Source: Acidobacteriota bacterium
GTDB taxonomy: Bacteria > Acidobacteriota > Vicinamibacteria > Vicinamibacterales > 2-12-FULL-66-21
DNA: 64,000 bases
Direction of reading: 5' to 3'
NCBI GenBank assembly: GCA_016184105.1
Contig: JACPDI010000029.1
Location: 7,905 to 71,904, forward strand
In this document: piece by piece, positions 1 to 4,179 of the stretch
Position numbering within the stretch: position 1 is the stretch's first letter
How the letters are laid out: each line of letters starts with the position of its first letter
The notes under the pieces: generated by a model
The model's database searches: none
What the model saw: the letters and a program-made list of their open reading frames with translations, nothing else
Told to the model about the DNA's origin: nothing
Position numbers and translations under genes: made by a program

Positions 1-112
1 GAGTCTTCCCCGGCAGGCGCGAGGCTGGAGGCGGCGGCCGGCGCCGCCGCGCCCGCCACCGCCGTCGCGCCAATCGCGCTGACCTTGAAGAAGGTTCGTC
101 GCGTGAGTTTCA
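1..112 (-). CDS. N-terminus of a twin-arginine (TAT) signal protein that runs off the left edge; probably a periplasmic redox-enzyme subunit
   Basis: Reverse strand from ATG at 112 reads MKLTRRTFFKVSAIGATAVAGAAAPAAASSLAPAGED... It has an RRxFFK twin-arginine motif and a hydrophobic h-region. A GAGG lies just upstream. It is open-ended, so it is absent from the ORF track. Confidence 0.45.
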
Positions 113-123
113 TGGGCGTGACC

Positions 124-210
124 TCAATGCCGGGTGCCGGCGAGCGACACGTACGACATGACGGAGAGAACCAGGAGCGCCATCATCGTGAGCGGGATGG
201 TGAGGATCAT
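124..210 (-). CDS. 28-aa hydrophobic micro-protein with a single predicted TM helix
   Basis: MILTIPLTMMALLVLSVMSYVSLAGTRH. AAAGGAGG lies 7 nt upstream of the ATG at 210. That ATG overlaps the TGA of the upstream 75-aa ORF (ATGA at 207-210). The stop is 11 nt before the next ATG (112). Confidence 0.35.
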   Translation of the reverse strand: MILTIPLTMMALLVLSVMSYVSLAGTRH

Positions 211-434
211 CGCGCGACCTCCTTTGCGGGTGCCGGACCTTTGGGCTCCGCCGCGACGCCGTGGACGCCGCCGGCGGCTGCCAGGCGCGCCATGGCTTCG
301 CGGAAGAGCGGGCAGTCGTGGAATTGCCCCAGGCACGGGTCGGCGGTCGCGATGCGATCGAGCGGAAGCATCTTCTTCACGGGGTACGCATCGCAGAAGA
401 GCATCACGACTTCCTTCAGGTGCGGGCAGCTCAT
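207..434 (-). CDS. Hypothetical 75-aa protein with four Cys (C3, C14, C34, C41)
   Basis: ORF 207..434 has GC3-rich codons typical of this window. GGAAG lies 7 nt upstream of the ATG. A sigma-54 promoter lies about 60 nt upstream. I do not recognise the family. Confidence 0.5.
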   Translation of the reverse strand: MSCPHLKEVVMLFCDAYPVKKMLPLDRIATADPCLGQFHDCPLFREAMARLAAAGGVHGVAAEPKGPAPAKEVAR

Positions 435-494
435 GGGCGTCTTCCAGGTGAATCGCGGTGCCGCGTTCGTGCGCCACCGTCACCCCACGGCATG

Positions 495-509
495 GCAACG
501 GTCGCGCCA
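495..509 (-). promoter_or_regulatory. Sigma-54 (-24/-12) promoter
   Basis: The minus strand reads cTGGCGCGaccgTTGCc, against the consensus TGGCACG-N4-TTGCW. The GG-N10-GC spacing is exact. It lies between the stop of the sigma-54 activator (622) and the ATG at 434. Confidence 0.55.
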
Positions 510-621
510 GGCACTCGCGTGCGGATTTACCGGGGAATTGTGGTGGTTGCGGGAAAAGGGATCGGTGAAAGCCTCAACGGCGAGTTGAGGATTTCAACGC
601 GGGTGTGGCGGTCGAGGGAAG

Positions 622-1977
<1,356 letters not shown>

Positions 1978-2499
1978 AGGATTGCTCCCTGAGATCGCGA
2001 AATCGACTCCGGCAGTCCGGGCACAGCCGGTCCTGCTTCAGATCGACGGCCGCGAGCGCCGGCGATCGCGCCATGACGCACGCGGATGACGCGCAGTGCA
2101 CGAGCCCGAACGTGTGGCCCACCTCGTGGACCGACTCCTTGGCCAGCCGGGCGCGGACGAGCGCGTCGGCCGGCGGCTCGCGCAGCCGCGCGGTCGAGAC
2201 CACGGCGACCCGGCCGGCGAGCTGCGCCTCGCCGAAGACGAAGGTGAGCACCGGGATGAACAGATCCATGCCGGTGACGCCGAGCAGCTTCGCGCCGTCG
2301 GCCGGCATCCGCCCGGCAAGCCACTCGAGGATGACGCGCGACGAGTGCTGCTGCCGTCGAACGTCGAAGGCATTCGGCGACCGCTCGTCGATCCACGCGC
2401 GGCGCGCCGCCATCTGGAACTCCCGCTGCAGCGCGGCGATGGCGGGATCCAGCAGCCGCGGCGGCTCCGGACCCTCGCCGATCCACGCGACGTAGATCG

Positions 2500-4179
2500 T
2501 CACGGGTGCTGTGGCGGACCTGGAAGGTAGGCCCCACAGGTGACCCCCGCGTGCGACGGGCCTGAAAGGCCCGCGCCGCTCACGTCCCCCACACGTTCCA
2601 CCGCCGGCGGCAGCGTGATCGTCACCGTCGTGCCTTCTCCCGGCGTGCTGTCGATCTTGAGCGTGCCCCCGTGCCGCTCGACGATGCCGTAGACGACCGA
2701 GAGCCCCAGGCCGGTGCCCTTGTCCCTGGTCGTGAAGAAGGGATCGAAGACCTTCTTCAGGTGCTCGGGCCGGATCCCCGTCCCGGTGTCGCGCACGGCA
2801 ACCTCTGCCGATCCGCCGGCATTGCGCGAGACGATGTGCAGCGTCCCGCCGCTGGGCATCGCGTCGCACGCGTTAATCAGGATGTTGACGAGCGCCTGCC
2901 GGATTTGCCCGAAATCCGCTTCGATGGGCGGGACGTCGCCCAGCTCCGACTGGAGCTGGATGTTCTGCATCTTCACCTGGTTGTTGATCAGGAACAGCGT
3001 CTCGCCGAGGACGGCGTTGACGTCCACCTGCGTGAGCTTCAGCTCGCGCTCGCGCGCGAAGTCGAGCAGGTTCCGGACAATCGCGGTGCAGCGCTGCGTC
3101 TCGCGCTCGACCAGCTTGAGCTGGCCGATGATCTTCGCGCGCTGCGCCTCGTCCGGGGGCGCTTCCTCCAGCGTGCGGACGAGCAGTTTCGCGTAGGTGA
3201 GGATCCCGGCGAGCGGGTTGTTGATCTCGTGCGCGATGGATGCCGCCAGGCGGCCGAGCGACGAGAGCTTCTCGCTCTGGACCATCTGTTCCTGCGCCTT
3301 GCGCAACGCGGCGGTGCGGTCCTGCACCTGCTGCTCGAGCCCGTCGAGCAGCGCCAGCCGCTGGCGGCGGACCTCCTGCAGCGCCGCTTCCATTTCGTTG
3401 AACGCGCGGGCGAGCTCCGCGATCTCCCCCGATCCGCTGACGGGCACGGGCTCCTTCAGGTCCCCGTGCGTGACACGCCGCACGCCGCCTACCAGCTGTT
3501 GCACCGGCTGGACGAGGCTGCGCCGCGTGAAGACGATCACCGTCATCGCGAGGCCGAGCACCGTGATCACGGCGACCTCCGCCGTGCGGCGCTGCAGCGA
3601 GGCGAGCGTGCCGTCCACGTTCGACAGCGACATCCCCACTTCGAGCAGGCCGAGGACGCGCTGCTGGGGCGGGTGCGCGTGACACGCGGCGCTCGAGCAG
3701 GCGGGCGCGTTGTAGATCGGGCTGACCGTCGCCAGCACGCGCCCGCTGCGGTGCGCGATGACGCGGCTGCGCGCCGACGGGGTCAGCGACTCTGGCCTGT
3801 GACTGTTGGTGTGGCACGCGGCGCACGTCGGCTCGCGCGTGCTCGCGACGCGCCCGATCTCGGCCGCATCCATCGAGTACTGCGTCAGCCCCTGCGAGTC
3901 GAACAGCCGCAGCTCCGCCATGAGGGGCTGCGACGCCACGGCCTGCAGCGATCCGACGAGCTCGGCGCGCTCGTTGCGGAGCATGTGCCGCTGGAGACTT
4001 CGGACGAGCGTGTCGCTCAGGAACGCGGCATTGCTCACCGTCTCCTGCATCAGCAGCTCCTGCTGCGCGCGCAGCACGAGATACAGGAAGATGGCGCCGC
4101 CGATTGCGGTGGCAAGGATGATGACCGCCGTCACCTTGACGCTCAGGCGATCCCACCAGCGCAACCCGCTGAGAGGCAT
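2500..4179 (-). CDS. Sensor histidine kinase (2 TM, periplasmic domain with CxxCH motifs, HAMP, HisKA, HATPase)
   Basis: H-box SIAHEINNPL, N-box NILINACDAM, G-boxes DTGTGI and GTGLGLS, HAMP segment VQQLVGG...AFNEM. Two TM segments flank a roughly 160-aa periplasmic domain. That domain contains CAACH and CSSAACH. Confidence 0.9.
   Translation of the reverse strand: MPLSGLRWWDRLSVKVTAVIILATAIGGAIFLYLVLRAQQELLMQETVSNAAFLSDTLVRSLQRHMLRNERAELVGSLQAVASQPLMAELRLFDSQGLTQYSMDAAEIGRVASTREPTCAACHTNSHRPESLTPSARSRVIAHRSGRVLATVSPIYNAPACSSAACHAHPPQQRVLGLLEVGMSLSNVDGTLASLQRRTAEVAVITVLGLAMTVIVFTRRSLVQPVQQLVGGVRRVTHGDLKEPVPVSGSGEIAELARAFNEMEAALQEVRRQRLALLDGLEQQVQDRTAALRKAQEQMVQSEKLSSLGRLAASIAHEINNPLAGILTYAKLLVRTLEEAPPDEAQRAKIIGQLKLVERETQRCTAIVRNLLDFARERELKLTQVDVNAVLGETLFLINNQVKMQNIQLQSELGDVPPIEADFGQIRQALVNILINACDAMPSGGTLHIVSRNAGGSAEVAVRDTGTGIRPEHLKKVFDPFFTTRDKGTGLGLSVVYGIVERHGGTLKIDSTPGEGTTVTITLPPAVERVGDVSGAGLSGPSHAGVTCGAYLPGPPQHP

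What the first reader, a model, noticed from the sequence alone, without database searches (positions are those of the whole stretch)
1..620. Near-consensus sigma-54 promoter driving a micro-operon (75-aa 4-Cys protein, 28-aa membrane peptide, TAT-signal protein) directly behind its presumed activator
On the minus strand, positions 509-495 read TGGCGCGaccgTTGC. The sigma-54 consensus is TGGCACG-N4-TTGC, and the GG-N10-GC spacing here is exact. The element lies 113 nt after the stop of the NtrC-type activator and about 60 nt before the ATG at 434. Downstream are three tightly packed ORFs. The first is a 75-aa protein with Cys at positions 3, 14, 34 and 41. The second is a 28-aa hydrophobic peptide with a strong AAAGGAGG RBS, whose ATG overlaps the preceding TGA (ATGA). 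The third, 11 nt further on, begins MKLTRRTFFK..., a twin-arginine signal. Between the activator stop and the promoter there are TCAAC/GTTGA/TCAAC half-sites (572-598) that could serve as an enhancer or a terminator. I do not recognise either small protein. Together this looks like the regulated target of the heme-motif kinase / sigma-54 pair, possibly a periplasmic redox enzyme with two uncharacterised small accessory proteins.
Basis: partly seen in the sequence, partly recalled or inferred. Interest (0 to 1): 0.62.

Follow-up and report, generated by a model that had tools for sequence, protein, structure and literature searches.

The report
Sigma-54 operon with two new small proteins
A textbook sigma-54 promoter with its activator-binding sites drives a conserved six-gene membrane redox operon, and its first two genes encode real small proteins that belong to no described family.

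Summary

**Promoter.** TGGCGCGACCGTTGC (window 509-495, minus strand) would not be significant alone: the genome holds 141 TGGC-N7-TTGC sites against 157 expected. It recurs upstream of the same gene in 36 of 43 related loci, against 0.017 expected per 250 nt, and the spacer varies. They fit best as the binding sites of the adjacent NtrC-type activator. rpoN is present.

**Small ORFs.** Both look genuine.
- The 75-aa protein has four Cys that are invariant or nearly so. It matches nothing in Pfam, NCBIfam, PHROGs or PDB, and its family is small (167 clusters).
- In other phyla it is fused N-terminally to GcvH-like domains.
- The 28-aa peptide keeps its ATGA-overlapped start and ribosome-binding site in 33 of 42 loci.

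**Operon.** It is not a micro-operon. Six genes follow the promoter: the two small ORFs, a Tat-exported HmcB/HybA-like four-cluster FeS protein, an HmcC/HybB-like NrfD membrane subunit, and two membrane-anchored GcvH-like proteins without a conserved lipoyl lysine. There is no catalytic subunit.

I found no paper describing the cassette. Its function is inferred, not shown.

The parts
584..598 (.). Upstream activating site 1, the exact palindrome GTTGAaatccTCAAC (read on the minus strand)
   Evidence: It is the only intergenic exact copy in the 4.24-Mb genome. A palindrome with at most 1 mismatch is conserved in 40 of 44 loci, 67-226 nt upstream of the -24 element.
564..578 (.). Upstream activating site 2, GTTGAggcttTCACC (1 mismatch), centred 20 nt from site 1
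   Evidence: Tandem copies about 20 nt apart recur in many orthologous loci, for example L008, L011, L017 and L039.
495..509 (-). Sigma-54 -24/-12 promoter element TGGCGCGACCGTTGC. The predicted transcription start is near 483.
   Evidence: TGGC and TTGC are conserved with a variable spacer in 36 of 43 other loci. rpoN is present.
207..434 (-). p75, a 75-aa cytoplasmic protein with four conserved Cys (C-x10-C-x19-C-x6-C), first gene of the operon, new family
   Evidence: It has 357 homologues. All four Cys are invariant in the 25-sequence alignment; in the 120-sequence set C34 and C41 are invariant and C3 and C14 at least 90% conserved. GC3 is 0.85. There are no Pfam, NCBIfam, PHROG or PDB matches.
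124..210 (-). p28, a 28-aa single-helix membrane peptide that is translationally coupled (ATGA overlap, AAAGGAGG ribosome-binding site)
   Evidence: The same frame, overlap and ribosome-binding site occur in 33 of 42 loci. The N-terminal consensus is MILALPLS. GC3 is 0.96.
1..113 (-). N-terminus (Tat signal) of the HmcB/HybA-like four-cluster FeS protein. The full gene is L003 8017-7118, which lies off the window.
   Evidence: HmcB model 343 bits (cut-off 420), HybA model 243 bits (cut-off 263), Fer4_11 E = 1.9e-21.
622..1977 (-). NtrC-type response regulator and sigma-54 enhancer-binding protein (receiver, AAA+ domain with GAFTGA, Fis-type HTH)
   Evidence: Sigma54_activat E = 1.1e-69. The GAFTGA loop is read in the translation.
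1940..2503 (-). Archaemetzincin-like (M54) metallopeptidase gene overlapping both kinase and regulator
   Evidence: PF07998, E = 3e-17. It is syntenic in nearly all loci. All 17 p75-positive Acidobacteriota genomes also carry M54.
2500..4179 (-). Sensor histidine kinase (HAMP, HisKA, HATPase) whose periplasmic loop carries CAACH and CSSAACH motifs
   Evidence: It is syntenic in the related loci. Haem binding was not tested.

Best explanation
**What is shown**
- Window 495-509 is a genuine sigma-54 (-24/-12) promoter.
- Two tandem palindromes, GTTGA-N5-TCAAC, lie 55-103 nt upstream of it.
- The promoter heads a six-gene operon, in this order:
  - p75, a 75-aa protein with four conserved Cys
  - p28, a 28-aa one-helix membrane peptide
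  - a Tat-exported HmcB/HybA-like protein with four FeS clusters
  - an HmcC/HybB-like NrfD membrane subunit
  - two N-terminally anchored GcvH-fold proteins whose lipoyl-lysine position is not conserved
- Both small ORFs are conserved genes.

**What is inferred**
- The palindromes are the binding sites of the response regulator encoded immediately upstream.
- That regulator is in turn controlled by the neighbouring kinase, which carries haem-c motifs.
- p75 is a cytoplasmic metal-binding domain (Zn or Fe-S) that partners the GcvH-like domains on the inner face of the membrane module.
- p28 is a small membrane subunit made in fixed ratio with p75 through translational coupling.
- The whole operon forms a quinone-linked electron-transfer or redox-sensing module that has no catalytic subunit of its own.
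For: **Promoter**
- The GG-N10-GC spacing is exact.
- rpoN is present on contig C13.
- The adjacent regulator has the sigma-54 interaction domain (E = 1.1e-69) and a GAFTGA loop.
- TGGC-N7-TTGC is conserved in 36 of 43 loci with a variable spacer, against 0.017 expected per 250 nt.
- No sigma-70-like promoter was found in window 1-900.

**Enhancer**
- The palindrome is present with at most 1 mismatch in 40 of 44 loci and exactly in 18. Copies often sit 20 nt apart.
- It stays next to the promoter in loci where the regulator gene is more than 1 kb away, namely L007, L009, L014, L016, L022, L027 and L029.
- Only one other exact copy exists in the genome. It is intragenic and has no -24/-12 site nearby.
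- An AT-rich island lies between enhancer and promoter in 57% of loci against 6.5% of background windows. Four loci there match the IHF consensus exactly.

**Operon**
- Overlaps or gaps between genes are at most 35 nt.
- The order HK-M54-RR-p75-HmcB-HmcC-GcvHa-GcvHb is shared by nearly all 41 Vicinamibacteria-type loci.
- The next gene downstream has its own TTGACA-16-TATACT promoter.

**p75**
- It has 357 homologues. All four Cys are invariant in the 25-sequence alignment. In the 120-sequence alignment, which includes distant fusion copies, C34 and C41 are invariant and C3 and C14 at least 90% conserved.
- Eight of ten long profile hits carry the domain fused N-terminally to a GcvH domain.
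- The domain folds poorly alone (pLDDT 52). Its blocks reach about 68-82 inside a fusion protein.

**p28**
- It is conserved in 33 of 42 loci with the same 4-nt overlap and ribosome-binding site.
- The conserved C-terminal KEV of p75 is that ribosome-binding site read as codons.
Against: - There is no transcript or transcription-start evidence.
- The single promoter match is at chance level genome-wide.
- The own locus has only a weak AT-rich or IHF-like element.
- The tandem palindromes can also fold as an RNA hairpin directly after the regulator gene (z = -2.9).
- The metal-binding and docking roles of p75 rest on fusions and Cys conservation alone. No structural relative was found for the p75 domain.
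- p75 is present in only 17 of 127 M54-carrying Acidobacteriota genomes, so it is not essential to the cassette.
- p75-p28 fusions are rare, 3 of 250. At least one (L008) comes from an indel-rich assembly.
- NrfD-type subunits carry no haem, so a route for electrons across the membrane to p75 is not evident.
Confidence: 0.72

Rival explanations
1. The -24/-12 match is a chance hit in a GC-rich genome. On this view the six genes are transcribed by read-through from the kinase-protease-regulator operon or from an unrecognised promoter, and the CCTCAAC...GTTGAGG hairpin is the regulator gene's terminator.
For: - TGGC-N7-TTGC occurs at chance frequency, 141 observed against 157 expected in the genome and 1 against 1.9 expected in the window.
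- The hairpin folds with z = -2.9.
- All nine genes are co-directional.
Against: - The motif is conserved in 36 of 43 loci while its spacer and flanks diverge.
- The palindrome is conserved as DNA with variable spacer bases. It stays beside the promoter when the regulator gene is more than 1 kb away.
- No U-tract terminator was called on this strand.
Confidence: 0.08
2. p75 is a substrate or precursor peptide for the co-conserved archaemetzincin-like protease. That could mean a processed regulatory or RiPP-like peptide rather than a structural metal-binding subunit.
For: - All 17 p75-positive genomes carry M54, and in at least 14 it lies 2-3.5 kb upstream on the same strand.
- p75 has a conserved N-terminal 50 residues and a variable tail.
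- It folds poorly alone.
Against: - The Cys residues sit in the conserved part, not in a variable core.
- No modification enzymes are nearby.
- The domain is stably fused to GcvH-like domains in other phyla.
- M54 occurs without p75 in 110 of 127 genomes.
Confidence: 0.1
3. p75 is a cytoplasmic Tat-proofreading or FeS-insertion chaperone for the HmcB-like protein encoded just downstream, analogous to NapD or HybE.
For: - It is a small cytoplasmic protein encoded directly upstream of a Tat substrate with four FeS clusters.
- The two are co-transcribed.
Against: - It matched no chaperone family, or any other family, in Pfam or NCBIfam.
- It is absent from most cassettes, and the p75-less cassettes sampled still encode the HmcB-like protein.
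- Its recurrent fusion partner is the GcvH-like domain, not the FeS protein.
Confidence: 0.07

Closest known systems
Classical NtrC-type sigma-54 promoters such as glnAp2 (tandem activator sites, optional IHF bend, -24 GG / -12 GC)
   Same: The -24/-12 spacing is exact. Tandem palindromic upstream sites are spaced two helical turns apart. An AT-rich or IHF-like element lies between enhancer and promoter in many orthologous loci. The activator has a receiver, an AAA+ domain with GAFTGA, and a Fis-type HTH.
   Different: The binding-site sequence GTTGA-N5-TCAAC appears dedicated to this operon, since the only other exact copy in the genome is intragenic. The signal is presumably redox, sensed through a kinase with haem-c motifs, rather than nitrogen.
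Hmc complex (HmcABCDEF) of Desulfovibrio vulgaris and the HybA/HybB module of E. coli hydrogenase-2
   Same: A Tat-exported four-cluster FeS protein is paired with a haem-less NrfD-type membrane subunit. These are the best NCBIfam matches: HmcB 343 bits, HmcC 464 bits, HybA 243 bits, HybB 259 bits. Hmc also has a tiny one-helix subunit, HmcD (from my own knowledge).
   Different: All scores fall below the equivalog cut-offs. The operon has no HmcA cytochrome, no HmcE or HmcF, and no hydrogenase subunits. In their place it has a four-Cys mini-protein, a 28-aa peptide placed before rather than after the membrane subunit, and two GcvH-like proteins. p28 matched no NCBIfam model.
Glycine cleavage H protein (GcvH) and lipoyl-carrier relatives
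   Same: The last two operon genes, and the fusion partners of the p75 domain, have the GcvH fold. Pfam scores are 80 and 65 bits. Normalised to the PDB H-protein chains, the TM-score is 0.88-0.90.
   Different: The lipoyl-lysine position is not conserved. The proteins carry N-terminal membrane anchors and a C-terminal extension with an invariant DGG motif. They score below the gcvH equivalog cut-off.

Membership tests
Sigma-54-dependent promoter | GG at -24 and GC at -12 with exactly 10 nt between, within a TGGCAC-N5-TTGC-like context | tested here: met
   TGGCGCGACCGTTGC lies at window 509-495. It is conserved in 36 of 43 loci.
Sigma-54-dependent promoter | The organism encodes RpoN | tested here: met
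   The Sigma54_DBD model matches at 220 bits on contig C13 in an intact 479-aa frame.
Sigma-54-dependent promoter | A cognate enhancer-binding protein with an AAA+ sigma-54 interaction domain and GAFTGA loop | tested here: met
   PF00158 matches at E = 1.1e-69. GAFTGA is read in the translation.
Sigma-54-dependent promoter | Upstream activator-binding sites about 80-200 nt from the promoter | tested here: met
   Tandem GTTGA-N5-TCAAC copies lie at 564-598 and are conserved in 40 of 44 loci. Binding by the regulator was not tested.
Sigma-54-dependent promoter | Transcription start about 12 nt downstream of the -12 GC, with rpoN-dependent expression | not testable with these tools
HmcB / HybA (equivalog level) | Score above the NCBIfam equivalog cut-off | tested here: not met
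   HmcB scores 343.4 against a cut-off of 420. HybA scores 242.9 against 263.
HmcC / HybB (equivalog level) | Score above the NCBIfam equivalog cut-off | tested here: not met
   HmcC scores 464.2 against a cut-off of 550. HybB scores 259 against 450. The general NrfD Pfam model is met, 54.2 against 25.8.
Hmc complex | Multihaem HmcA plus cytochrome b HmcE and HdrD-like HmcF in the operon | tested here: not met
   None of the six operon genes has such domains.
Glycine cleavage H protein | A conserved lipoyl-lysine in the hairpin, together with a gcvH equivalog score | tested here: not met
   The canonical position is Ser in GcvHa and Pro in GcvHb, and it varies across orthologues. TIGR00527 scores 74.6 and 49.3 against a cut-off of 115.85.
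Any described family for p75 and p28 | A match in Pfam, NCBIfam or PHROGs (both proteins), or to PDB sequences (p75 profile) | tested here: not met
   There were no hits at E of 0.01 or less in Pfam or NCBIfam, and none at 0.1 in PHROGs. The best PDB profile hit for the p75 alignment has E = 0.041, with no matched stretch passing the threshold. p28 was not searched against PDB.

The most novel reading that the evidence does not exclude
The four-Cys p75 domain, together with the GcvH fold that lacks a conserved lipoyl lysine, forms a previously unrecognised cytoplasm-facing cofactor or thiol module. It plugs into an HmcBC-type quinone complex, and p28 is its dedicated membrane subunit. The assembly would act as a redox-signal or electron relay of a new kind. 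It would be tied to a haem-sensing kinase and an archaemetzincin-like protease rather than to any catalytic enzyme.
Probability: 0.25. Interest if true: 0.75.

Novelty: new variant of a known kind. Interest (0 to 1): 0.55.

Why it matters
The promoter itself is ordinary, but it gives clean, conserved regulatory wiring for an uncharacterised module: a kinase with haem-c motifs, an NtrC-type activator, a dedicated palindromic enhancer and a sigma-54 promoter.

The archaemetzincin marker of this cassette occurs in 127 of 401 sampled Acidobacteriota genomes, and 11 of 12 sampled marker loci lay inside the cassette. No searchable paper describes it.

Two of its genes are new small-protein families that annotation pipelines label hypothetical or miss. 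Fusion of the four-Cys domain to GcvH-like domains gives a concrete, testable partner for a fold whose role without lipoate is unknown.

The operon also offers a defined inducible promoter and regulator pair for soil Acidobacteria, a phylum with few genetic tools.

Tried and rejected
- **p75 alone in AlphaFold2** (120-sequence alignment): pLDDT 52, not usable.
- **Fold search of the fusion model against PDB:** only the GcvH part matched.
- **Profile of p75 against PDB sequences:** nothing credible.
- **Pfam, NCBIfam and PHROGs for p75 and p28:** no hits.
- **Rfam on window 1-700:** nothing.
- **5'-UTR hairpin:** not better than shuffles, z = -0.8.
- **Terminator scan:** nothing on the operon strand after the regulator gene.
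- **Second exact copy of the palindrome** (C66:24724): it lies inside a long open reading frame and has no -24/-12 site, so I rejected it as a second target.
- **No copy of the palindrome upstream of the kinase gene**, so there is no sign of autoregulation through this site.
- **p75-p28 fusions as evidence of interaction:** only 3 of 250, and L008 comes from an assembly with many frameshifts, so I treat them as weak.
- **Five literature searches** found no description. No paper in the library holds both GcvH and NrfD.

Full report
**Location and observation**

The window is G000:C43:7905-71904. I fetched the 7.9 kb to its left as L003, where the window position equals the L003 position minus 7904.

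- TGGCGCGACCGTTGC lies at 509-495.
- The activator's stop codon is at 624-622.
- The 75-aa ORF (p75) runs 434-207, with Cys at positions 3, 14, 34 and 41.
- The 28-aa ORF (p28) runs 210-124. Its ATG sits inside an ATGA overlap, with AAAGGAGG upstream.
- A Tat-type MKLTRRTFFK start is at 113.
- The GTTGA/TCAAC/GTTGA half-sites span 598-574.

**Is the promoter more than chance?**

Taken alone, it is not. The genome is 68% G+C. It contains 141 TGGC-N7-TTGC sites against about 157 expected from base composition. The window contains one against 1.9 expected. Only the stricter TGGC[AG]CG-N4-TTGC is rare, with 6 copies in the genome.

The case rests on comparison with related loci. A scan of species-representative genomes with a p75 alignment returned 43 loci. 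Forty-one are from Vicinamibacteria-type Acidobacteriota, one is labelled Deltaproteobacteria and one Syntrophorhabdaceae.

- Exact TGGC-N7-TTGC lies within 250 nt upstream of the p75 orthologue in 36 of the 43. The background in the same loci is 0.017 per 250 nt.
- The seven spacer positions vary freely, and position 5 prefers A, as in the consensus.
- Those sites were picked with a pattern, so the fixed positions are partly fixed by construction. The frequency contrast is the real evidence.
- rpoN is present.
- The upstream gene is a receiver / AAA+ / Fis-HTH activator with a GAFTGA loop.
- No sigma-70-like promoter was found in window 1-900.

**Enhancer or terminator?**

The half-sites form two tandem palindromes. 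The copy at 584-598 is exact and the copy at 564-578 has one mismatch. Their centres are 20 nt apart.

- The same palindrome, with at most one mismatch, occurs within 400 nt upstream of p75 in 40 of 44 loci (own locus plus the 43). Eighteen copies are exact. The background is 0.023 per 400 nt.
- Many loci hold two or three copies, with about 20 nt between neighbours.
- The palindromes stay beside the promoter in loci where the regulator gene ends more than 1 kb away. A terminator of that gene would not do this.
- No U-tract terminator is called on this strand. The RNA hairpin that the tandem sites can form (z = -2.9) follows from the repeated palindrome.
- The only other exact copy in the genome lies inside a long open reading frame and has no -24/-12 site near it.
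- Between enhancer and promoter, 57% of loci have an AT-rich island, against 6.5% of control windows. Four loci match the IHF consensus exactly there. The own locus is weak at this position.

Together these give the standard enhancer, bend and -24/-12 architecture.

**Extent of the operon**

Six tightly packed genes follow the promoter:
- p75
- p28, which overlaps p75 by 4 nt
- an HmcB/HybA-like protein after a 10-nt gap (L003 8017-7118)
- an HmcC/HybB-like NrfD protein (7152-5923)
- two GcvH-like proteins with N-terminal hydrophobic anchors (5930-5250 and 5236-4526)

The next gene encodes a TonB-receptor-like protein and has its own TTGACA-16-TATACT promoter, so the operon probably ends at L003 4526.

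The FeS protein scores 343 bits on the HmcB model and 243 on HybA. The membrane protein scores 464 on HmcC and 259 on HybB. All four scores are below the equivalog cut-offs. No cytochrome, hydrogenase or other catalytic subunit is present.

The order kinase, M54 protease, regulator, p75, HmcB, HmcC, GcvHa, GcvHb holds in nearly all Vicinamibacteria-type loci.

**The GcvH-like proteins**

Against the genome's true GcvH, the lipoyl-lysine position is Ser in GcvHa and Pro in GcvHb. That position varies among orthologues. They therefore have the H-protein fold but probably cannot carry lipoate. Positive residues follow their anchors, which suggests cytoplasmic domains. This topology is inferred from the positive-inside rule.

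**p75**

- It has 357 homologues, all unnamed or labelled hypothetical.
- The N-terminal 50 residues are strongly conserved. In the 25-sequence alignment C3, C14, C34 and C41 are all invariant. In the 120-sequence alignment, which includes distant fusion copies, C34 and C41 are invariant and C3 and C14 at least 90% conserved.
- The tail is variable except for a terminal K-E-V. Those codons are the ribosome-binding site of p28 (AAGGAGGT).
- An exhaustive profile search of 1.84 billion representatives found only 167 clusters.
- Many hits are 240-370 aa long. Eight of ten examined carry one or two copies of the domain fused N-terminally to a GcvH domain, and one also has a receiver domain.
- In the Syntrophorhabdaceae locus, a protein with two p75 domains fused to GcvH lies behind an M54 gene and a sigma-54-like site. 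It is followed by a small membrane protein, HmcB-like and HmcC-like genes, and an anchored GcvH-like gene.
- All eight Cys of that fusion family are invariant.
- p75 alone models poorly (pLDDT 52). Inside the fusion, its blocks reach about 68-82 as a beta-hairpin plus short helices.
- Only the GcvH part has PDB relatives. No library or PDB profile recognises p75.
- GC3 is 0.85.

I infer a cytoplasmic four-Cys metal-binding domain that works with the GcvH-like fold. Whether it holds Zn or Fe-S is open.

**p28**

- A 23-36-aa hydrophobic ORF starts at the ATGA or GTGA overlap with the p75 stop codon in 33 of 42 loci. It keeps a GGAGG-like ribosome-binding site and an N-terminal consensus of MILALPLS.
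- GC3 in the own copy is 0.96.
- One locus shows a fusion and eight show none. At least two of these nine come from assemblies with many frameshifts.
- Fusions of p75 to a transmembrane tail are rare, 3 of 250, so I give them little weight.

p28 is most simply a one-helix subunit made in step with p75. The small HmcD subunit of Hmc is an analogy I recall from memory, not a tested relationship.

**Distribution**

- p75 occurs in 17 of 401 sampled Acidobacteriota genomes, in 10 of 228 genera. It is absent from the two other genera sampled in the same family.
- The M54 marker occurs in 127 of 401 genomes.
- All 17 p75-positive genomes carry M54. In at least 14 of them it lies 2-3.5 kb upstream on the same strand.
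- Eleven of 12 sampled loci that have M54 but no p75 still contain the kinase and regulator. All eleven keep a GcvH-like gene and eight also keep the HmcB- and HmcC-like genes, in other gene orders.
- Among those p75-less loci, I saw a sigma-54 site with a palindrome (at most one mismatch) upstream of the cassette's first gene in L049 and L055, and a sigma-54 site without the palindrome in L054.

p75 and p28 are therefore optional additions to a much commoner cassette.

**Earlier notes and literature**

Earlier notes in this scan described the cassette in other genomes as conserved and undescribed. I read them after establishing the synteny here. They agree with my reading but are not independent evidence.

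Five literature searches found no description, and no paper in the library contains both GcvH and NrfD.

**Verdict**

- The promoter and enhancer are an ordinary kind of element, here unusually well supported by comparison.
- The novelty lies in what they drive: an Hmc/Hyb-like quinone module without a catalytic partner, headed by two small proteins of new families.
- Function remains inferred.

Noticed in passing
L019, L028, L033, L034 (about 45-55 nt upstream of the -24 element); own window about 525-550: An AT-rich island lies between the enhancer and the promoter in 57% of orthologous loci. Four loci there match the IHF consensus WATCAANNNNTTR exactly. One subclade instead shows GTGA-N6-TCAC, which resembles a CRP/FNR-type site. 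The own locus has only a weak version.
   Followed up: partly
L003 5250-5930 and 4526-5236; L047 5974-6870, 6884-7132 and 9296-9988: Every GcvH-like protein of the cassette carries a C-terminal extension with a conserved [A/H]DGG motif, and DGG is invariant in the fusion family (A3). The same motif ends an 82-aa membrane protein in the Syntrophorhabdaceae locus.
   Followed up: no
P0213, P0217, P0188, P0189 (metagenomic proteins): A second unannotated Cys-rich repeat, roughly C-x12-13-C-x5-C-x2-C and present twice, sits between the p75 domain and the GcvH domain in 356-371-aa proteins. It also follows p75 in 171-185-aa proteins that lack GcvH.
   Followed up: no
P0214 (363 aa): A single polypeptide combines a response-regulator receiver domain, a p75 domain and a GcvH-like domain. 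This hints that the p75/GcvH pair can itself be under phosphorylation control.
   Followed up: no
L003 4357-4384, minus strand (outside the window): A near-consensus sigma-70 promoter, TTGACA-16-TATACT (11 of 12), lies in front of the 1082-aa TonB-receptor-like gene directly downstream of the operon. It marks the operon's probable end.
   Followed up: partly
window 5-69 versus G000:C48:40729-40794: A 79%-identical stretch elsewhere in the genome matches the Tat-signal and Ala-rich N-terminus of the HmcB-like gene. It may mark a paralogous Tat FeS protein.
   Followed up: no
L048-L058 (Acidobacteriota loci with M54 but no p75): The cassette's gene order is fluid. In several genomes GcvH, HmcB, HmcC, kinase, regulator and M54 are all co-directional with M54 last. 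In L051, L052 and L058 the HmcB- and HmcC-like genes were not found next to the regulators.
   Followed up: partly
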